Shown here in pieces: positions 2,219 through 10,852 of a DNA stretch of 10,852 bases (position 1 is its first letter; each line of letters starts with the position of its first letter). Position numbers and translations under genes: made by a program. The notes under the pieces were generated by a model. The model did no database searches. It worked only from the letters and a program-made list of their open reading frames with translations, and was not told the origin of the DNA. The stretch comes from a virus (lineage: Duplodnaviria; Heunggongvirae; Uroviricota; Caudoviricetes). The stretch lies in the IMG/VR virus record IMGVR_UViG_3300015155_000024; one strand, given 5' to 3'.

Positions 2219-5200
2219 ATGGAAAGAAAAAACGCCAATATTGACGATGTTATAAGGACAGTTGAAACCGCCAGCGCGAAAGAGCTGGAAGAGCTTGCAG
2301 GTATTCGGGAAGCTGTTGAAGATTTGAAAGGGGAACGAGTTGCAACTGTTGATCCTGTCTCTCGCAGTGTGTCGGCATTAAATCGCACAATCGAAAATTC
2401 ACGTCCTGACTTTGTGACCAATGTGCCATCAGTGGACTCTATTGTTGACGCAATGAAACGGCTTAATTTAGGGGACGTTTCTCGTATACGGGAGGACAAA
2501 GTCACTAACCGTGAACAGCAGGCTGCACCAACAGCGCACAATCCCCCAAATAGACGAAGAGAGGCAATAACAGAGGATGTTAAAGCACAGCGGTTAGAAA
2601 CGGTCAAACTCGCTCGTGATTTGAAAGGGGAACGCGTTGCAACGGTTGACCCAGTATCTCGCAGTGTGTCGGCATTAAATCGAACAATCGAAAATTCCCG
2701 GCCAGACTTTGTGGCCAATGCGCCATCAGTAGACCCTATTGTTGACGCAATGAAACGGCTTAATTTAGGGGACGTTTCTCGTGTAGTTCAGGAGGGCATT
2801 GCTCAACAGGAACAGCAGGCCAAATCAACTACACCAAAGGGTAAAAAAAGACGCAGGAAGGCTATATCAGAGGATATAAAGGCACAACGGACCGAAGCAG
2901 CCGAACACGCTCGCGAAATGTTCGATCAAAAAGGCGGTGCGCAAAAAAGCCAAAACCAACGCGATGCGCGTGGTCGTTTTATTGGAAAGTCAGGGAGTAA
3001 GGCCGCAGCGGAAGATGCCCGTGCTGAACGTGCTGAAAAGGCCAGGCGCAAAGAGGATGATGAGCGTCTAAATGCTGAATCAGGTTTATTAAAAAAACTG
3101 TCAAAAGTAGCTGAAGGCATAGGTAACCCTTCAGAGACTCGTGCCGTCGATGCGTTAGGTTATGCCGTTGCTGGTCCATTGTGGGCAGCAGGGAAGGAGC
3201 TTGGCGGGATATCAAAAGAAGTTGGTGGATCGCTTAATGGCGCCAGAAAGTCTATTGCCGATGTGATTCGTGGCAATGACGATAACAGCCGTAGAAAAGG
3301 TTTTTTTAGGCGTAAATCGCAAAATAGTGCCGATGTCGTTCAGGTTAACACCCAAAAACGGACGGTTCAGGAACTTCAGGAGCAGACCAGCGAAATTAAA
3401 GAGGGCAATGACAAGATTCTCAGCGCCCTTGATCAGATAGCCAAAAACACCGGGAAAAAGAAGGGCGGCTTGCTGTCCAAACTATTTAGCCTGTTAGGGA
3501 AGGGGGCCGGTGGCGTCGCGTCGTTGTTAATGGGGCGTGGCATGCTGAAAAAAGCTGGAGCACTCGCTTTTGGCGCTCTGGGGGCAAAGAAACTTGTAGG
3601 AATGCTACGCGGTGGTGGCAAGAAGACTATCGCCCATGAAGGTGGAGATTTGGCTGCCCGGGCAGCAGGTAAATTTGGATTAAAGGCAGTTGGTAAAGGG
3701 GCGTTACGCGCAATTCCCTTAGTCGGCACAGTGGCTGGAGGTATTTATGATGCGGTAACCGGTTGGAATGATACAGAAGCGCAACGTCGAGCGTTTGGGC
3801 TTAAATCAGGACAAGAGCCATCATTCCAGCAAAAAGCCGCTTATACGTTAGCCAATGTTCTTGATATGGGGGGACTGGTATCTGGTATTAGCAGCGCCAT
3901 TGGTGAGGTTCTCAAATCACTTGGATTTGAGGATATCGGCAATATGTTGCAATCATTTTCGACGGAAAGTATTGCCCAGGCCATTGATAGTGGGATTACC
4001 AACTTAGAAACATATATTTCTAACCTTGGCGACACCATTTCTACCAAGTTCGAAGATTACACAGCAAAGATTGGTGATGCTGTTTCAGCATGGTTTAGCG
4101 ATACATCTAATAAGCTGCTTGAAAAGCTGGATGCCATCAAAGACTTCTTTACTGTTGATAACCTGAAACAGGTTTTCAGTGATGCAATTGATAGTGCAAT
4201 TGATTTCATTAAGAACCCAGGGAAACACATTAAAGAGGCGGCTGGTAATATTTGGGATGGGGTTAAAAATTTACCTGGTAAAGCATTAGATGCAGCGGTT
4301 GATGCCGTTAAAAATACCCCTGCGGCAATGATTGTATCAAAAATACCCAATCCGATCGGCGAGGCTAATGCGAAAGAAATCACTCCGGAGTTAAAAGCTC
4401 CGGTTAATAGCCACCAGGAGACGTCTGATTCTAAAACTGAATCCGATGCCAAACAGAGTAATATTGCTACCCGCGTGATAAATGCGGCACTGGACACAGC
4501 GAAAGATAGCAATAAAACAGTTAAACAAACTGCCAATCAGATTATCAATGCAAATGCCGTAGAAACGGGCAATAGCGCGTTGCAGAAAATTGATAAAGCT
4601 ATTGGTCAAAATAGCTCGTCATCATCGTCGCTTAATACCACTGGCACCAGGAATGACATTCAGAAAGCTGCGGATACTTACAACAATGGCAAATTAGATG
4701 TAAAAGTCGGAAGTCTTGGCGCTGAAGGTAAGGCAAATCTCGATAAGTTGGCTCCGTATTTTGCCGAACTAGAGAATAAATACGGTCTTCCAGAAGGCAC
4801 TCTTTACGCGATTGCTGCAACTGAATCTGGTGGTAATCCGTATGCAAAATCCCAAACCGGTGCTCTGGGGATGTTTCAGTTCACGGGGATTGCTCGTGAA
4901 GAGACTGGCTTAGCTGAAGGTGAATCGTTTGATCCTGTGAAATCGGCAGAAGCTGCGGCTCTTCTCATGAGCAAGTATCTTAAGCAAGCCAATGGAGACT
5001 TAAACGAGGCCATCACTGCATATAATGCTGGGTTTGGCACTATTAATAAGTGGAAAAAAGGCACCGGTGACTTATCGAAAGAAAACCGTGAGTACGCGAT
5101 CAAGGTCAATACTCATCGTGCTCGCTATTTAGGTGGTGAAATCTATACACCTGGAGCAGGAGCACAGGGTGGGGCGCAATATGGAGTGAGGGGACCACTG

Positions 5201-5908
5201 CCTGATAACGCTGTTATCGATCAGTATACTGGCCTGGCGTTTACCCCTGGTGATAGCCCGTTTGAGAAAGGCGGTCTGGTCGACAAAATCGGCAATGCTG
5301 TTGGCGTTAACGATCTGGTCAACAAATTCATGAATGGCCGGGGGATGCGTCGGGAAGTCGTTCAGGGAACGCTAGAAGAACGTGCACGAGAGAAGGGGAC
5401 CGCAACAGCAGCTGGCAATGTGTATGTTGATACTCCGATGCCAGTTGAAGAGGCGCGTCCGGTGGCCAACAACTCAAGTTACTTTGACCATCTCGGCGCA
5501 CAAATGGGGATTGATGGACTATTCGATAAACTCCGCAACTCGCCGGGGATGCGGAAAAATAATGCGCCTGAACCAGCCTCCACGTCCCAGGTGACGACTG
5601 CCGCCAACGATTTGCAGCAACCAACCGGTCGTATGCAGATAGACGGGCAGGTTATTAGTGACCTTGGCGGTTCCGGTGCCAAGCCGACAATGCAGTTGGC
5701 TGATAATACCGTTTCACTTGATGGTGAAACGAAGCGGCTGTTTGCGCAGATGACCTCATTGCTTGCCAGGATTGAAGAGCACACCAAAGACTCGGCGAAA
5801 GGCCAGGGAACTGTCGTAAAGGTCAGCACGCCTCAGCCGGGCGTTATGCGCACGGTACCACTGTCAATTGATGATCCGTTGATGAATGACTACGCGAGAG
5901 TTGATTGA
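2219..5908 (+). CDS. Tail tape measure protein (1229 aa) with internal SLT-type lytic transglycosylase domain
   Basis: Very long ORF in the canonical position after tube and chaperone genes. N-terminal charged, helical, repeat-containing region; Gly/Ala-rich hydrophobic segment (about aa 415-520); a lytic transglycosylase motif set ATESGGNP ... GALGMFQF ... AYNAGFG around aa 855-945. Confidence 0.9.
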   Translation: MERKNANIDDVIRTVETASAKELEELAGIREAVEDLKGERVATVDPVSRSVSALNRTIENSRPDFVTNVPSVDSIVDAMKRLNLGDVSRIREDKVTNREQQAAPTAHNPPNRRREAITEDVKAQRLETVKLARDLKGERVATVDPVSRSVSALNRTIENSRPDFVANAPSVDPIVDAMKRLNLGDVSRVVQEGIAQQEQQAKSTTPKGKKRRRKAISEDIKAQRTEAAEHAREMFDQKGGAQKSQNQRDARGRFIGKSGSKAAAEDARAERAEKARRKEDDERLNAESGLLKKLSKVAEGIGNPSETRAVDALGYAVAGPLWAAGKELGGISKEVGGSLNGARKSIADVIRGNDDNSRRKGFFRRKSQNSADVVQVNTQKRTVQELQEQTSEIKEGNDKILSALDQIAKNTGKKKGGLLSKLFSLLGKGAGGVASLLMGRGMLKKAGALAFGALGAKKLVGMLRGGGKKTIAHEGGDLAARAAGKFGLKAVGKGALRAIPLVGTVAGGIYDAVTGWNDTEAQRRAFGLKSGQEPSFQQKAAYTLANVLDMGGLVSGISSAIGEVLKSLGFEDIGNMLQSFSTESIAQAIDSGITNLETYISNLGDTISTKFEDYTAKIGDAVSAWFSDTSNKLLEKLDAIKDFFTVDNLKQVFSDAIDSAIDFIKNPGKHIKEAAGNIWDGVKNLPGKALDAAVDAVKNTPAAMIVSKIPNPIGEANAKEITPELKAPVNSHQETSDSKTESDAKQSNIATRVINAALDTAKDSNKTVKQTANQIINANAVETGNSALQKIDKAIGQNSSSSSSLNTTGTRNDIQKAADTYNNGKLDVKVGSLGAEGKANLDKLAPYFAELENKYGLPEGTLYAIAATESGGNPYAKSQTGALGMFQFTGIAREETGLAEGESFDPVKSAEAAALLMSKYLKQANGDLNEAITAYNAGFGTINKWKKGTGDLSKENREYAIKVNTHRARYLGGEIYTPGAGAQGGAQYGVRGPLPDNAVIDQYTGLAFTPGDSPFEKGGLVDKIGNAVGVNDLVNKFMNGRGMRREVVQGTLEERAREKGTATAAGNVYVDTPMPVEEARPVANNSSYFDHLGAQMGIDGLFDKLRNSPGMRKNNAPEPASTSQVTTAANDLQQPTGRMQIDGQVISDLGGSGAKPTMQLADNTVSLDGETKRLFAQMTSLLARIEEHTKDSAKGQGTVVKVSTPQPGVMRTVPLSIDDPLMNDYARVD
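2324..2917 (+). repeat. Diverged in-frame tandem duplication (2 units of 297 nt, i.e. 99 aa) inside the TMP N-terminus
   Basis: Core 162-nt segments 2324-2485 and 2621-2782 align with 13 mismatches by eye (about 92% identity), including a 47-nt identical stretch (2439-2485 vs 2736-2782). Each core is followed by a diverged basic motif (RRREAITEDVKAQR / KKRRRKAISEDIKAQR). Confidence 0.85.
4781..5060 (+). other. SLT (lytic transglycosylase family 1) catalytic domain embedded in the TMP
   Basis: Motifs E-S (ATESGGNP; candidate catalytic Glu codon gaa at 4823-4825), GALGMFQF and AYNAGFG in the order and spacing typical of soluble lytic transglycosylase domains. Confidence 0.8.
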
Positions 5909-6264
5909 TGGCCAACAATAACGAAATTGATCCTTTGCTGACGCTGGAGTTATCCGGCGTAAAAACGTATGAGTCCCAGGAGGAGGCCTGGGGCGCTCGT
6001 TTATATGAGTGGCTAAACACTTATCAGGGTGAGGTATACGGAGATCCGTCATGGGGCAATGTTTTACCGCTGTTTAAACACGAACCGACCAACTTGTCGC
6101 ATGTTCAAATTGCGGTTGAGGCAATGCTGTTGCAAAAACTGACGGTAGATTTACCTGACATACCGATTTCTGGCTTGTCAGTAGCCGAGGGAGATGCTTT
6201 TGATAAGTTGAAAATATCCATTCGTATCAGGGATATAACTATCACACAGGACGTGGTGCTATGA
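5908..6264 (+). CDS. Small baseplate/tail-tip protein (118 aa), possibly gp25/gpW-like wedge protein
   Basis: ATG at 5908 overlaps the TMP stop TGA (5906-5908) by 1 nt; the ORF track start at 5905 is a TTG and probably not the real start. Size and position match P2 gpW/T4 gp25-like proteins; the motif TYQGEVYGDPSWGNVL weakly resembles the conserved gp25 motif. Family assignment is tentative. Confidence 0.65.
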   Translation: MANNNEIDPLLTLELSGVKTYESQEEAWGARLYEWLNTYQGEVYGDPSWGNVLPLFKHEPTNLSHVQIAVEAMLLQKLTVDLPDIPISGLSVAEGDAFDKLKISIRIRDITITQDVVL

Positions 6265-7694
6265 GTAAAACAACACCGACTAAAGACAGTATTCGTGCAG
6301 AGTTTGAAGAGCTTGTCGAGAAAGATTCATTCTGGTCGAAGTTTGTCGGCTCTCAATTTGTCTCGATGCTGACATTGTTTATTACCCAGATTGTCTACAG
6401 GTGCTTTCAGTATGCCGATGCGGCGCTGGCTGAAGGCTTTATATCGACCGCGACGCGGCGTTCCTCTATCCTGGCAGCGGCAGAAACGAATAGTTACGTT
6501 GGTACCAAGCCAACACCGTCATCGGGGATGATTGAGATCACCGCCACAAGTGAAGATGCCCCAGCGGTAATCCCCAAAAATATGCCTTTAATATCTGACG
6601 ACCAGTACCCTTACATGACTATGGATGTATGCAGGTTGGTTGACGGCACCGGTACGGTAGAAGTGGCACAGTTGGAAATCCAGGAGGTGACATATACCGT
6701 TACGGCAGCCAAAGAATTTCTGGAAGTCGTGTTATCAAAGGCTCTCACTGCTGTCTGCTATAAGCTGGAAGTATTCGTGACGACCGATGGTAAGACCACG
6801 CAGTGGTCTTCCAGCACTATGTTCCGGTTAGCCGGTAGTAAAAGCCAGGTCTACGTTGAGTTTTATAAGCCATCCGAGCAGTTGGGGGTTCGATTCGGTG
6901 ATGGGCTAATTGGGCAAATACCGCCAGAAGGCTCGACCATTACACTTAAGGTATGGTGCACCAACGGAGATATAACCCTGGTTGCTGGCCAAAACCTGAC
7001 GCCTGTCGATTCTGCGGCTAATTTAGCTAATTTGATTTCAGTTAAGACAACGACACCCATAACCGCAGGTACCGATGCCGAAACAACGGAGATCACACGT
7101 AATCGTGCACAATATTACCTTGCCTATGATGATCAGGTCGTATGGGGCGGGGACTATACGTATTTTTTGGTGCGTAACATCCCGGGACTGTCCTGGGTAA
7201 AGGCATGGGGCGAAGGCCAGCAAGAGAAATTAGATGGTGCTTATAATGTTCGGAATATCAATAAGATATTTATTTCAGGATGGCATCCAAACAAAAGCCA
7301 GTCAGAGCTTGAAGAAGTGATCCTGGCTGCCTTTAAGAAGGTGCCGAATGAGTTGAACAAGAAATTCTCGTATAAAGAGGTCAGAAAACTCCCCTTTAAG
7401 ATCACTATCACTGGGCGGATATCGGCAAGCCTGACCATTGAGAACGTGACTGATGAGCTGAAGTCGGCACTGGAAACAAAATTTGGGCGTGACTCAACTT
7501 TCTTTGATCCGAACCGTGTTGGCAAGTACATCCTAATCAAGAAAAAAGACGTTTGGGCATTTATCGAAACGCTGGGTTATTTCCGCGACTTTTATCTGGA
7601 ATTTGTCGAGTGGAATGAGTCCAACGGCTTTTACGATTTCGTTTATCTGGATACAGAAAACTCCACCTTTAATATTTCGTATGAGGAGGAGTGA
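6261..7694 (+). CDS. Large baseplate/tail-tip structural protein (477 aa), possibly baseplate J-like
   Basis: ATG at 6261 overlaps the upstream stop (ATGA at 6261-6264), indicating translational coupling. Sits between a gp25-sized gene and the fiber-proximal genes, as for J-like baseplate proteins in P2/Mu-type modules. No unambiguous motif recognised. Confidence 0.7.
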   Translation: MSKTTPTKDSIRAEFEELVEKDSFWSKFVGSQFVSMLTLFITQIVYRCFQYADAALAEGFISTATRRSSILAAAETNSYVGTKPTPSSGMIEITATSEDAPAVIPKNMPLISDDQYPYMTMDVCRLVDGTGTVEVAQLEIQEVTYTVTAAKEFLEVVLSKALTAVCYKLEVFVTTDGKTTQWSSSTMFRLAGSKSQVYVEFYKPSEQLGVRFGDGLIGQIPPEGSTITLKVWCTNGDITLVAGQNLTPVDSAANLANLISVKTTTPITAGTDAETTEITRNRAQYYLAYDDQVVWGGDYTYFLVRNIPGLSWVKAWGEGQQEKLDGAYNVRNINKIFISGWHPNKSQSELEEVILAAFKKVPNELNKKFSYKEVRKLPFKITITGRISASLTIENVTDELKSALETKFGRDSTFFDPNRVGKYILIKKKDVWAFIETLGYFRDFYLEFVEWNESNGFYDFVYLDTENSTFNISYEEE

Positions 7695-8533: not shown

Positions 8534-8558
8534 TCACCCCGTCCGCAGGGCGGGGTGA
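8534..8558 (+). terminator. GC-rich hairpin (stem tcaccccgtcc / ggacggggtga with G-U closing pair, 3-nt loop) 3 nt after the stop of the 278-aa gene; possible weak intrinsic terminator or RNA-stabilising/attenuating structure
   Basis: Inverted repeat read from the sequence. The downstream tract (caagttacttctctt) is only moderately T-rich, so terminator strength is uncertain. Lies in the only sizeable intergenic gap (8531-8608) of the operon. Confidence 0.35.
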
Positions 8559-8608
8559 CAAGTTACTTCTCTTACAATGAGGCTTCACAACATTGATTAG
8601 GGAAAATC

Positions 8609-9043
8609 ATGTCTGACGTCTCAACAAACCTCTATAAGAGTCAATTGTTGGACTATTACTATCAGCGGCGCGCTGAATCGTCCATTAACAAAGGCTCTCG
8701 ATTTTTAATCAGCAAGGCCGTTTTCGGTACCAGTTCACTGGTTACTAAGAAAGGAGATGGCACTTATGAGATTGGAGAACTGCCAAAGGCTTTCGATCTG
8801 GCAGAACTGACCAGTCAATTTTGCACCATCAACCTCGTCCCAACCTACTCAGGCGGGATAATTACTGTCCGAATGGACCTTGATCAAAGTCAGTTGCAGG
8901 AAGGGAAAAACTACCCATTCAACACTCTGGTTGTTCTGGATAACGAGAATAAGCCAATCGCCATTATTTGTGTCCAGGAAGACTCGCTGTATGTGGGCAA
9001 AACATATACCGCAGTTATGGCCATAAACTCGACTACAGCATAA
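8609..9043 (+). CDS. Hypothetical protein (144 aa) immediately upstream of the tail fiber gene; possible fiber-associated or adaptor protein
   Basis: ATG at 8609 with a weak SD (AGGGAA) 5 nt upstream; TAA stop at 9041-9043. Same strand, 11 nt before the fiber gene. No recognisable motif. Confidence 0.6.
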   Translation: MSDVSTNLYKSQLLDYYYQRRAESSINKGSRFLISKAVFGTSSLVTKKGDGTYEIGELPKAFDLAELTSQFCTINLVPTYSGGIITVRMDLDQSQLQEGKNYPFNTLVVLDNENKPIAIICVQEDSLYVGKTYTAVMAINSTTA

Positions 9044-9054
9044 GGATATGCTTG

Positions 9055-10852
9055 ATGAATGACGTTACAGTTGTTACATCGGTTACTTACCCATCACCCG
9101 AGTCGTTGGCTCTGGTGGCTGATGTGCAATACCACGAACCATATCTGTCAGCCGCTCTAAACCGAAAATTCAGGGGAATTGTTGACCCGGGATTTTATGC
9201 TGGTTTCTTGCCTAAGCCTGGCGGTGGGATGAACCTGTTAATCACCTCAGTGGATGGAGATAAAACCGCTGGCGCGGCGTCAGTGGATATTGGTGAATTC
9301 TACCAGGTAACTATTCAGCATCGTAAGGATATCTCTCTTGCACTTAACGCAGGCAAGAAATATGCAATTGTGCTGAAGGGAAGATACCTTCTTGGAGAAG
9401 ATACCTATCAGGTGAATACCGCGTCACATATTCATGCAGCTGAATTTGTTGCCAGAACCTATACCGATTCATATCAGTTAGGTGATGGGGAACTGCTGGT
9501 TTGTACGGTGAATATCCCTGCTGGCGTATCTACCATTACTCAAGAGATGATTGATACATCCGAGCGTATCAACCGCACGATCGGCATTGATATTTCAGAC
9601 TCTGTAACCAGTACCAGAAGTGATGTTGCTGCGAGTTCGCTGGCAGTTAAAAAAGCCTACGATCTGGCGAAAAGCAAGTATACGGCGCAGGATGCAAGCA
9701 CAACGCAAAAGGGATTAGTTCAGCTCAGTAGTGCCACTAACAGTACGTCCGAAGTGCTGGCCGCCACACCGAAAGCTGTCAAGGCTGCATATGACCTGGC
9801 TAACGGGAAGTATACAGCCCAGGATGCAACCACGACACAAAAAGGGATAGTTCAGCTCAGTAGCGACACCAACAGCACTTCTGAAACATTAGCTGCAACT
9901 CCAAAAGCGGTTAAAGCTGCATACGATCTAGCAGCCGGAAAGGCACCATCCAGTCATACACATCCCTGGAATCAGATCACTGGTGTGCCAACAGCTTCAT
10001 TGACAGCGAAAGGCATCACTCAGCTCAGTAGTGCCACTAACAGCACGTCTGAAGTGCTGGCCGCCACACCGAAAGCTGTCAAGTCTGTAAAAGATCTTGC
10101 TGATACCAAAGCGCCAATAGAAAGCCCGAGTCTGACAGGAACGCCAACCGCGCCGACGGCAGCGCAAGGTACAAACAGCACGCAGATCGCAAATACAGCC
10201 TTTGTTAAGGCAGCTATAACGGCACTTATCAACGGTGCACCTGGCACATTGGATACGCTGAAAGAAATAGCGGCTGCGATCAATAACGACCCGAATTTCA
10301 GCACAACTATCAACAATGCCTTGGCTCTCAAAGCGCCTTTGGCAAGCCCTGCATTAACGGGTGTCCCTACTGCGCCTACCGCTGCACAGGGTACGAATAA
10401 CACGCAGATTGCTACGACCGCTTATGTAAGAGCTGCCATATCCGCATTGGTTGGTTCATCACCAGAAGCTCTTGATACCCTGAATGAGCTTGCCGCAGCA
10501 CTTGGCAATGACCCGAACTTTGCGACAACAATGACAAATGCGCTGGCAGGCAAACAGCCTCTGGATGCAACTTTAACCGCTCTCGCTGCCCTTGCGACTG
10601 GTGCAAACAAACTGCCTTATTTCACTGGTAAGGATACGGTAGCTCAGACTGATTTAACGTCAGTCGGTCGCGATATTCTGGCTAAAACAAGCACACTGGC
10701 CGTTATCCAATACCTTGGTTTAAGAGAACTCGGTACCAGCGGTGAAAAGATCCCCCTGTTGAGCACGGCTAACACATGGAGTGCGCGCCAGACTTTCAAC
10801 GGAGGGATCACCGGGGCACTGACAGGGAACGCCGACACCGCGACGAAATTGA
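9055..10852 (+). CDS. Tail fiber protein, lambda Stf / P2 gpH family, 3'-truncated by the window end (at least 599 aa)
   Basis: ATG at 9055 preceded by AAGGA (9042-9046). I translated the frame by hand with no stop through 10852. Contains three copies of the hallmark fiber repeat xKGxxQLSSxTNSTSExLAATPKAVKxxxDLA, two collar-like units (KAP..SP.LTG.PTAPTAAQGTN.TQIA.TA.V.AAI ... L.TL.E.AAA..NDPNF) and the LTALA.LAT.ANKLPYFTG...VGRDILAK segment, all closely recalling lambda Stf. Not listed in the ORF track because it has no stop inside the window. Confidence 0.9.
   Translation, partial: MNDVTVVTSVTYPSPESLALVADVQYHEPYLSAALNRKFRGIVDPGFYAGFLPKPGGGMNLLITSVDGDKTAGAASVDIGEFYQVTIQHRKDISLALNAGKKYAIVLKGRYLLGEDTYQVNTASHIHAAEFVARTYTDSYQLGDGELLVCTVNIPAGVSTITQEMIDTSERINRTIGIDISDSVTSTRSDVAASSLAVKKAYDLAKSKYTAQDASTTQKGLVQLSSATNSTSEVLAATPKAVKAAYDLANGKYTAQDATTTQKGIVQLSSDTNSTSETLAATPKAVKAAYDLAAGKAPSSHTHPWNQITGVPTASLTAKGITQLSSATNSTSEVLAATPKAVKSVKDLADTKAPIESPSLTGTPTAPTAAQGTNSTQIANTAFVKAAITALINGAPGTLDTLKEIAAAINNDPNFSTTINNALALKAPLASPALTGVPTAPTAAQGTNNTQIATTAYVRAAISALVGSSPEALDTLNELAAALGNDPNFATTMTNALAGKQPLDATLTALAALATGANKLPYFTGKDTVAQTDLTSVGRDILAKTSTLAVIQYLGLRELGTSGEKIPLLSTANTWSARQTFNGGITGALTGNADTATKL
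9641..10110 (+). repeat. Three in-frame copies of the phage tail fiber repeat, with two near-identical 63-nt DNA copies
   Basis: Repeat cores start at 9721, about 9853 and 10021. Segments 9721-9783 and 10021-10083 differ at 2 of 63 positions and are exactly 300 nt apart; the middle copy is more diverged at the DNA level. Confidence 0.85.
10108..10560 (+). repeat. Two diverged 222-nt (74-aa) tandem units inside the tail fiber (collar-like repeats)
   Basis: Unit 1 begins KAPIESPSLTGTPTAPTAAQGTNSTQIANTAFVKAAI at 10108; unit 2 begins KAPLASPALTGVPTAPTAAQGTNNTQIATTAYVRAAI at 10330. Protein similarity is clear; DNA identity is only moderate, so the duplication is old. Confidence 0.8.

What the first reader, a model, noticed from the sequence alone, without database searches (positions are those of the whole stretch)
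9721..10083. Near-identical 63-nt direct repeats exactly 300 nt apart inside the tail fiber gene
Fiber repeat copies 1 (9721-9783) and 3 (10021-10083) differ at only 2 of 63 nucleotides, while the intervening copy 2 is much more diverged at the DNA level although similar in protein. This suggests recent gene conversion or a recombinational join, typical of the modular shuffling known in Stf/gpH-family fibers. Because the spacing is a multiple of 3, recombination between them would delete 100 aa in frame, giving a shorter but intact fiber.
Basis: seen in the sequence. Interest (0 to 1): 0.5.

Follow-up and report, generated by a model that had tools for sequence, protein, structure and literature searches.

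The report
Variable 100-residue repeat in P1-type tail fibre
The two near-identical 63-base stretches mark the start of successive copies of a 300-base (100-amino-acid) repeat in the shaft of a phage P1-type tail fibre gene, a repeat present in 0 to 5 or more copies in related phage-plasmids; this is an ordinary feature of a well-studied gene.

Summary
Positions 9721-9783 and 10021-10083 differ at 2 of 63 bases, both synonymous, while the middle copy differs at 16-18.

The gene is the constant part (Sc) of tail-fibre gene S of a P1-like phage-plasmid. It lies after genes R, 16 and bplA, and cixR sits at 10706-10725.

The 300-nt spacing is the period of a tandem repeat. Each unit holds two Phage_fiber_2 elements plus an APSSHTHPWNQI linker. 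The window has 1.2 units. Related plasmids have five units that are 98-100% identical, and homologous proteins carry 5-14 repeat cores. Phage P1 has none and is exactly 300 nt shorter.

One E. coli draft contig is identical to the window over 3.7 kb upstream and about 1 kb downstream but carries exactly one extra 300-nt unit.

A separate mosaic join lies at the end of copy 3 (10081-10083), where array-type sequence meets P1/JL22-type sequence.

The exact 300-nt deletion product was not found. Every zero-unit fibre seen carries a different core.

P1 records already annotate repeated elements a0, a1, b1 and b2 in this gene. This is a new member of a known kind and of low interest.

The parts
9055..10852 (+). 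5' part of tail fibre gene S: constant segment Sc plus about 130 nt of the invertible Sv segment. The ORF runs off the window end.
   Evidence: Open frame from ATG 9055. 93-95% nt identity to gene S of P1, P7, RCS47 and JL22. Pfam Phage_fiber_2 E=7.9e-67 with 4 stretches. 100% identical to the 1296-aa fibre gene of E. coli plasmid NZ_CP103660.1.
9720..9783 (+). Core copy 1 (R-type core, QLSSATNSTSEVLAATPKAVK), the centre of repeat element a1.
   Evidence: Identical in L003, L004, L005, L008 and L010.
9853..9915 (+). Core copy 2 (D-type core, QLSSDTNSTSETLAATPKAVK), the centre of element a2. An old paralogue.
   Evidence: 18 and 16 mismatches of 63 to copies 1 and 3. pS 0.97 and 0.84.
10020..10083 (+). 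Core copy 3 (R-type). It is the first 64 nt of a second, truncated 300-nt unit.
   Evidence: 2 of 63 different from copy 1. Identical to the internal cores of the 5-unit arrays in L004 and L010.
9721..10020 (+). One full 300-nt (100-aa) unit of the tandem repeat: R core, rest of a1, a2, linker, and the 5' part of a3.
   Evidence: 1 mismatch to unit 1 of L004. L004 units differ from each other at 0-5 of 300 nt. TRF on L004 gives period 300, 5.3 copies, 98% matches. 156 plasmid records hold a full-length unit.
9943..9978 (+). 36-nt linker (APSSHTHPWNQI) that makes the second element of each unit 56 aa instead of 44 aa.
   Evidence: Spacing of 132 then 168 nt between cores. Spacings of 44 and 56 aa alternate in homologues.
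10081..10083 (+). Mosaic junction (AAG) between array-type sequence on the left and P1/JL22-type b1 sequence on the right.
   Evidence: Last mismatch to JL22 is at 10080. First mismatch to L004 is at 10084. 10081-10175 is identical to JL22. Segment identities.
9643..9678 (+). Partial element a0, in the phase used by the P1 GenBank annotation.
   Evidence: M81956 annotates a0 at 1615-1650 with S starting at 1027. Mapped by offset onto the window.
10111..10554 (+). Repeated elements b1 (10111-10332) and b2 (10333-10554), in P1 phase. These are old 222-nt repeats.
   Evidence: P1 annotation, mapped with the +300 offset. b1 and b2 are 59% identical with synonymous sites saturated.
10706..10725 (+). 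cixR, the Cin recombinase crossover site at the Sc/Sv boundary.
   Evidence: Identical to the annotated P1 cixR.

Best explanation
The two 63-nt stretches are equivalent positions in successive periods of a 300-nt (100-aa) tandem repeat. The repeat lies in the constant, shaft-encoding part of the P1-family tail fibre gene S. The general form is (R core + X)n + R core, and the window carries the n = 1 allele.

Their near-identity reflects recent common descent by duplication, maintained by unequal homologous recombination or replication slippage between units (concerted evolution). The middle element, a2, is an ancient paralogue inside the unit.

Because the period is a multiple of 3, gaining or losing units keeps the frame. 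Each change adds or removes two Phage_fiber_2 elements plus a linker, which presumably changes fibre shaft length without touching the receptor-binding Sv part beyond cixR.

Separately, the window allele is a mosaic. Array-type sequence runs up to the end of copy 3. JL22/P1-type b1 follows. A b2-cixR segment identical to yet another plasmid completes it.

Shown here: the repeat anatomy, the copy-number polymorphism, a +300 sister allele, and the mosaic junctions. Inferred: the recombination mechanism, the direction of change (the window may be a contraction of a longer array or the founder state), and the effect on fibre length and adsorption.
For: 1. L004 carries five tandem 300-nt units that differ at 0-5 of 300 nt. 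Its first core is identical to window copy 1, and its internal cores (four of the five later ones) are identical to window copy 3; the terminal core carries one extra difference. TRF gives period 300, 5.3 copies, 98% matches. L005 and L010 show the same.

2. The 120 top protein homologues have 5-14 cores with alternating 44/56-aa spacing and many different architectures.

3. 156 plasmid records hold a full-length unit, with 1-12 matching places per record.

4. L008 is identical to the window over 3696 nt upstream. Over 1097 nt downstream it has 5 mismatches, all at 10803 or beyond. It has exactly one extra unit, and its two units differ only at core positions 24 and 30.

5. P1, P7, RCS47 and JL22 are exactly 300 nt shorter and have one core.

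6. The units lie upstream of cixR in Sc. Host-range variation is assigned to Sv in the P1 annotation.

7. Each element is a Pfam PF03406 repeat. Phage Mu fibre protein S (PDB 5yvq) has one such element at residues about 99-153.
Against: - The window itself has only 1.2 copies, and TRF does not call a 300-nt repeat in it.
- All arrays have n + 0.2 copies, starting and ending exactly at the core. This suggests a core-X-core arrangement with already similar cores preceded amplification. Tandem duplication alone does not explain that origin.
- No zero-unit fibre with the R-type core was found in PLSDB or in complete E. coli genomes. Recombination between the two 64-nt cores of an n = 1 allele is therefore not documented.
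- Multi-copy arrays in draft assemblies, L008 included, can be mis-sized by short-read assemblers.
- No functional data were available here on fibre length or host range.
Confidence: 0.78

Rival explanations
1. Short-tract gene conversion. Elements a1 and a3 are old paralogues, like a1 and a2. A conversion patch of about 64 nt copied one core onto the other. The arrays in relatives arose later from this founder by unequal crossing-over between the homogenised cores.
For: - The identity tract is sharply bounded, with unrelated sequence upstream and diverged sequence downstream.
- Arrays always contain n + 0.2 units and begin and end at the core.
- Salmonella plasmid L006 has the same a1-a2-linker-a3 layout, but its third core differs from the first at about 9-10 of 63 nt. 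The layout can therefore exist without the identity.
Against: - The same two-base difference between first and later cores is shared by all array-type relatives, so any conversion is old and is not a feature of this window.
- In L006 the third core arrives together with a different downstream module, with a junction at 10021-10031. It may be a replaced module rather than an unconverted ancestor.
- Conversion and duplication cannot be told apart from a 64-nt tract alone.
Confidence: 0.13
2. Assembly collapse. The real molecule carries a longer array, and the 1.2-unit state in the window is what a short-read assembler leaves after collapsing identical 300-nt units.
For: Units in real arrays are 98-100% identical. 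A collapsed array would look exactly like core 1 - X - core 3. Phage record L005 shows sequencing problems in this very region, with 167-nt spacings and a fragmented CDS.
Against: Three plasmid records deposited as complete sequences and one further E. coli genome record show the identical one-unit structure. One-unit alleles with a different tail also exist in several complete plasmids, seen as 830-nt spans.
Confidence: 0.06
3. Nucleotide-level selection. The 63-nt core is a functional DNA or RNA site, such as a recombinase target or regulatory element, kept identical by selection.
For: None beyond the identity itself.
Against: The equivalent cores of a2, P1, JL22 and L006 differ at 10-19 of 63 nt while encoding almost the same peptide. 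The core has no resemblance to cixR. Rfam was not searched, so RNA families were not tested.
Confidence: 0.02

Closest known systems
Repeated elements a0, a1, b1, b2 in the constant segment Sc of bacteriophage P1 gene S. Source: GenBank M81956 and NC_005856 annotation. Papers: Sandmeier, Iida and Arber 1992, J Bacteriol 174:3936; Sandmeier 1994, Mol Microbiol 12:343. Both papers are cited in PMC3945230 but were not readable here.
   Same: Same gene, same neighbours (R, 16, bplA, pmgA, the SLT-domain protein), same cixR, and the same a- and b-type elements. The flanks of the window's repeat region are 95-97% identical to P1. From memory, the 1992 abstract already speaks of sequence acquisitions, deletions and amplifications producing mosaics of partially related repeated elements in P1 and p15B.
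   Different: P1 has a single full a element (a1) whose core differs at 17 of 63 nt from the window's. The window has three a elements plus a 36-nt linker, which is 300 nt more.
Array-type S genes of p15B-like and other P1-like phage-plasmids, for example NZ_CP027133.1 and NZ_CP102949.1.
   Same: 100% identical to the window from the start of S to the end of copy 3, and the same 300-nt unit.
   Different: They carry about 2-7 units. After the last core most continue with AAYDLANGKQAADATL... straight to the inversion region, and lack the P1-type b1/b2 elements that the window has.
Pfam PF03406 Phage_fiber_2 repeat, also seen as a single element in phage Mu fibre protein S (PDB 5yvq).
   Same: Each a element is one PF03406 repeat. 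Mu S residues about 99-153 align with a0/a1.
   Different: Mu S has one element. Here the elements are organised into a higher-order 100-aa unit that varies in copy number.
In-frame variable-number tandem repeats in surface and adhesin genes, and modular exchange in phage fibre genes (lambda Stf, P2 H, Mu S, T4 gp37). Basis: general knowledge.
   Same: The period is a multiple of 3. Copy number differs between otherwise identical alleles. Module joins sit at conserved repeat edges.
   Different: It is not a frameshifting contingency locus. No evidence was obtained here that copy number switches at high frequency or changes host range.

Membership tests
Punavirus (P1-like) tail fibre gene S, constant segment Sc | Sequence homology of the N-terminal part to P1 gpS | tested here: met
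   95.4-95.9% nt identity over 9055-9720. Full-length megablast hits to P1, P7, RCS47 and JL22.
Punavirus (P1-like) tail fibre gene S, constant segment Sc | Gene order: SLT-domain protein, pmgA, bplA, 16, R, S, with late promoter LPs upstream of R | tested here: met
   ORFs match the P1 annotation. The LPs boxes are conserved at 8560-8578.
Punavirus (P1-like) tail fibre gene S, constant segment Sc | cixR crossover site at the Sc/Sv boundary | tested here: met
   Window 10706-10725 is identical to the annotated P1 cixR.
Punavirus (P1-like) tail fibre gene S, constant segment Sc | Repeated elements a0, a1, b1, b2 | tested here: met
   All are present. The window has in addition a2, a linker and a3.
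Pfam PF03406 Phage_fiber_2 | Score above the curated gathering threshold | tested here: met
   221.1 bits against a cut-off of 22, E=7.9e-67, 4 stretches.
Variable-number tandem repeat (in-frame) | Head-to-tail copies of one period in the sequence itself | tested here: inconclusive
   The window has only 1.2 copies, and TRF reports only the older 132-nt period. In relatives the 300-nt period is clear, at 5.3 copies and 98% matches.
Variable-number tandem repeat (in-frame) | Copy number differs between otherwise identical alleles | tested here: met
   L008 versus the window: 0 mismatches in 3696 nt upstream and exactly +300 nt. 1 to 5 or more units were read directly in L003, L008, L004, L005 and L010.
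Gene-conversion tract between paralogous repeats | Sharply bounded identity between otherwise diverged copies | tested here: met
   62 of 64 nt identical, with unrelated 5' flanks and diverged 3' flanks.
Gene-conversion tract between paralogous repeats | Evidence that the copies were diverged before the event (unconverted relatives with the same flanks) | tested here: inconclusive
   L006 has a diverged third core, but together with a different downstream module. No relative with the same tail and a diverged core was found.
Phase-variable contingency locus (slippage causing frameshift) | Repeat unit not a multiple of 3, so that copy change switches the frame | tested here: not met
   The unit is 300 nt, or 100 codons. 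All variants read stay in frame, apart from a record with probable sequencing errors.

The most novel reading that the evidence does not exclude
The 300-nt unit array is a fast-changing length tuner of the P1-family tail fibre shaft. Unequal recombination generates fibres of different reach within a phage-plasmid lineage. Copy number is selected to match the thickness of the host's O-antigen or capsule layer. This would form a second layer of host-range adaptation, independent of Cin/Min inversion of the fibre tip. The absence of zero-unit fibres with this core type would then reflect a minimum functional length for that fibre type.
Probability: 0.2. Interest if true: 0.5.

Novelty: new member of a known kind. 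Interest (0 to 1): 0.2.

Why it matters
It explains an odd-looking repeat as part of a known feature of a classic phage gene. It also shows, from public data, that the shaft of the P1-family tail fibre varies in steps of 100 residues among natural phage-plasmids, which are common in clinical E. coli: about 10% of complete genomes here have a P1-like S gene. That is useful for annotation, because these genes are easily mis-assembled or split. It is also useful for engineering P1-based delivery vectors. It does not reveal a new mechanism.

Tried and rejected
- Reading Sandmeier et al. 1992 (PMC206102) and the P1 genome paper (PMC523184). Neither is held. The p15B record X62121 is not in the collections. 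Prior description therefore rests on GenBank feature tables, titles cited in PMC3945230, and my memory of the 1992 abstract.
- Literature searches for P1-like fibre tandem repeats or fibre-length variation found nothing specific. PMC6906374 notes only that the tail-fibre and C-segment region is a variable hot spot.
- Search for the exact 300-nt deletion product, built as window 9521-9783 joined to 10084-10350. In PLSDB and complete E. coli genomes the best single-piece matches are 94.5-95.1%, and these are P1-type cores.
- The same test for the commoner L004-type tail found 1-unit and +132-nt variants but no zero-unit variant.
- Exact-pattern scans of viral and metagenome contigs for the deletion junction gave 0 hits. 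The positive control, the window's own junction, also gave 0, so these scans have no power.
- TRF on the window does not see the 300-nt period.
- 'Places per record' from BLAST is only a rough proxy for unit number. NZ_CP102949.1 scores 12 places but has 5 units in the first S gene plus a second partial R-S copy.
- Rejected: selection on the DNA sequence of the core, because other cores encode the same peptide with 10-19 differences.
- Rejected: relation to cix sites, because there is no similarity.
- Structure prediction was not run. A monomer model of a trimeric fibre shaft would not have settled anything.

Full report
**Observation**

The window's last gene starts at 9055 and runs off the end. 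Positions 9721-9783 and 10021-10083 differ at 2 of 63 nt. The identity tract is 64 nt (9720-9783 vs 10020-10083), offset exactly 300 nt. The differences lie at 9744/10044 and 9750/10050, which leaves perfect blocks of 24, 5 and 33 nt.

The intervening copy (9853-9915) differs at 18 and 16 of 63 nt. In codon terms:
- Copies 1 and 3 encode the same 21 residues, with pS 0.12.
- Copies 1 and 2 share 19 of 21 residues, with synonymous sites saturated (pS 0.97).
- The 66 nt upstream of copies 1 and 3 are unrelated, and similarity drops immediately downstream.
- Given the 73-75% identity of the other pairs, 61 or more matches in 63 has probability of about 1e-6.

**What the gene is**

The gene is the 5' part of tail fibre gene S of a P1-like phage-plasmid.
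- Megablast finds P1, P7, RCS47, JL22 and other punaviruses at 93-95% identity.
- The upstream ORFs match P1's SLT-domain protein, pmgA, bplA, gene 16 and R.
- The late promoter LPs is conserved at 8560-8578.
- The Cin crossover site cixR is identical at 10706-10725.
- The window is 100% identical over the repeat region to E. coli IncY plasmid NZ_CP103660.1 and two other complete plasmids. There the gene encodes a 1296-aa fibre.
- The repeats are Pfam PF03406 Phage_fiber_2 elements, at 221 bits with four stretches.
- One such element is present in the solved Mu fibre protein S, PDB 5yvq, at about residues 99-153.

The P1 GenBank records already annotate 'repeated elements' a0, a1, b1 and b2 in this constant segment Sc.

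**The 300-nt spacing is a repeat period**

Every P1-type hit covers the query in two pieces spanning exactly 300 nt less. An alignment shows that P1 has one a element. Its 5' flank equals the flank of window copy 1, and its 3' flank equals the flank of window copy 3.

Plasmid NZ_CP027133.1 (L004) goes the other way. It has R-type cores at 6222, 6522... 7722 and D-type cores between them. That is five tandem 300-nt units, differing from each other at 0-5 of 300 nt. TRF reports period 300, 5.3 copies and 98% matches. NZ_CP102949.1 and phage vB_EcoM-673R5 also have five units.

The unit holds the following, in order:
- the R core;
- the rest of a1;
- a2, with the D core;
- a 36-nt linker encoding APSSHTHPWNQI;
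- the 5' part of the next element.

This comes to 100 codons. In these arrays the first core equals window copy 1. All later cores carry the two bases of window copy 3 at those positions; only the terminal core has one further difference. The window therefore carries one full unit plus the first 64 nt of the next.

**Population variation**

- The 120 best protein homologues carry 5-14 cores with alternating 44/56-aa spacing and dozens of architectures. At least four kinds of sequence follow the last core. This list is biased towards long arrays, because the score grows with repeat number.
- In PLSDB, 156 records hold a full-length unit, with 1-12 matching places per record.
- About 286 records have the zero-unit P1 architecture.

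The most direct evidence is protein P0024 and its contig L008 (GCA_051713205.1):
- It is identical to the window over 3696 nt upstream.
- It has 5 mismatches over 1097 nt downstream, all at or beyond 10803, inside the invertible segment.
- It carries exactly one additional 300-nt unit.
- Its two units differ only at core positions 24 and 30.

This is what unequal exchange between units would produce, in either direction. If the window is the ancestor, L008 is an expansion. If L008 is the ancestor, the window is a contraction.

**Mosaic structure**

| Window segment | Closest relatives |
|---|---|
| 9055-10083 | 99.6-100% to array-type fibres (L004; L006 up to 10031); 95.6% to P1 and JL22 |
| 10081-10175 | identical to JL22 |
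| 10084-10308 | 98.2% to JL22; 97.3% to P1 |
| 10309-10852 | 100% and 99.4% to zero-unit plasmid CP057172.1, whose b1 is only 96.4% identical |

The join between array-type and P1-type sequence lies in the AAG at 10081-10083. The last mismatch to JL22 is at 10080 and the first mismatch to L004 is at 10084.

P1 and JL22 diverge from the window at core position 12 (9732) and rejoin at core position 61. In the Salmonella plasmid L006 a different downstream module is joined within 10021-10031.

**Mechanism**

- Shown: the repeat anatomy, the copy-number polymorphism, the sister allele and the junctions.
- Inferred from general knowledge of tandem repeats: copy number changes by unequal homologous recombination or replication slippage between units.
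- Inferred: because units lie upstream of cixR in Sc, while host specificity is assigned to Sv, unit number should change shaft length rather than receptor specificity.

In an n = 1 allele such as the window, the only homology available for further contraction is 64 nt with two mismatches. That is close to the minimal length for efficient RecA-dependent exchange (general knowledge), so this state should be comparatively stable.

Consistent with that, no zero-unit fibre with the R-type core was found:
- The best single-piece matches to the constructed deletion product are 94.5-95.1%, all with P1-type cores.
- For the commoner tail type only 1-unit and +132-nt variants were seen.
- Scans of viral and metagenome contigs had no power, since the window's own junction was also absent.

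**Rivals**

1. A short conversion patch at the origin of the core-X-core arrangement cannot be excluded. It would explain why arrays always hold n + 0.2 units bounded by the core. It would be an old event shared by all array-type fibres, not something specific to this window.
2. Assembly collapse of a longer array is possible in principle, because a collapsed array looks identical. However, three plasmid records deposited as complete sequences and a further E. coli genome record show the one-unit state.
3. Selection on the DNA sequence itself is disfavoured by the 10-19 differences in other cores that encode almost the same peptide.

**Comparison with what is known, and verdict**

This is gene S of a P1-like element. 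All defining features tested were met. Its a-type repeated elements are annotated in P1 records dating from the early 1990s.

From memory, Sandmeier, Iida and Arber (1992) described acquisitions, deletions and amplifications producing mosaics of related repeated elements in the P1 and p15B fibre genes. I could not read that paper here.

The population-wide variation in steps of 100 residues, and the +300 sister allele, are tidy confirmations rather than surprises. I rate this a new member of a known kind, with interest 0.2.

The most novel reading not excluded is that unit number tunes fibre reach to the host's surface layer. I give this probability about 0.2, and interest 0.5 if true.

Noticed in passing
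window 10111-10554: The b1/b2 222-nt repeats are only 59% identical, with saturated synonymous sites. A mosaic breakpoint lies near their boundary: 10309-10852 is 100% and 99.4% identical to plasmid CP057172.1, whose b1 is only 96.4% identical.
   Followed up: partly
window 10706-10852: cixR is identical to P1, and the window extends about 130 nt into the invertible Sv segment. The only differences from the otherwise identical L003 and L008 are at 10803 and beyond, so the source carries a slightly different Sv allele or inversion state.
   Followed up: partly
window 8535-8578: A GC-rich hairpin (8535-8557) follows gene 16. After it come the P1 late promoter LPs -22 and -10 boxes (8560-8568 and 8573-8578), conserved with P1 except for one base between the boxes.
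   Followed up: partly
window 9721-9783 vs 9853-9915: The cores of a1 and a2 encode 19 of 21 identical residues, yet nearly every synonymous site differs (pS 0.97). This might simply reflect age. It might also reflect selection against recombination between adjacent elements. Unexplained.
   Followed up: no
L010 (NZ_CP102949.1) 9042-10300: A second copy of gene R and the 5' part of S, including an R-type core at 10154, lies about 3.6 kb downstream of the first S array. This is a duplication of the fibre operon start.
   Followed up: no
L005 (phage vB_EcoM-673R5, ON470615.2) 3501-5993: Three of the linker-containing spacings are 167 nt instead of 168 nt, and the S gene is annotated as several fragments. 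These are probably single-base sequencing errors in the repeat array.
   Followed up: partly
plasmids CP047090.1, MF510496.1, NZ_MN232192.1 and others: Variants exist in which the constructed zero-unit query spans 662 nt. That is +132 nt, or one extra a element without the linker. The 44-aa element can therefore also be gained or lost on its own.
   Followed up: no
window 6261-7694; L003 2762-4195: RefSeq names the P1 baseplate protein BplA homologue 'bleomycin hydrolase'. Pfam finds Baseplate_J and gp6-like domains instead, so this is probably a misannotation.
   Followed up: no
window 10020-10403, minus strand: A 127-aa ORF on the opposite strand lies entirely inside gene S. It starts exactly at copy 3 and is most likely spurious.
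   Followed up: no
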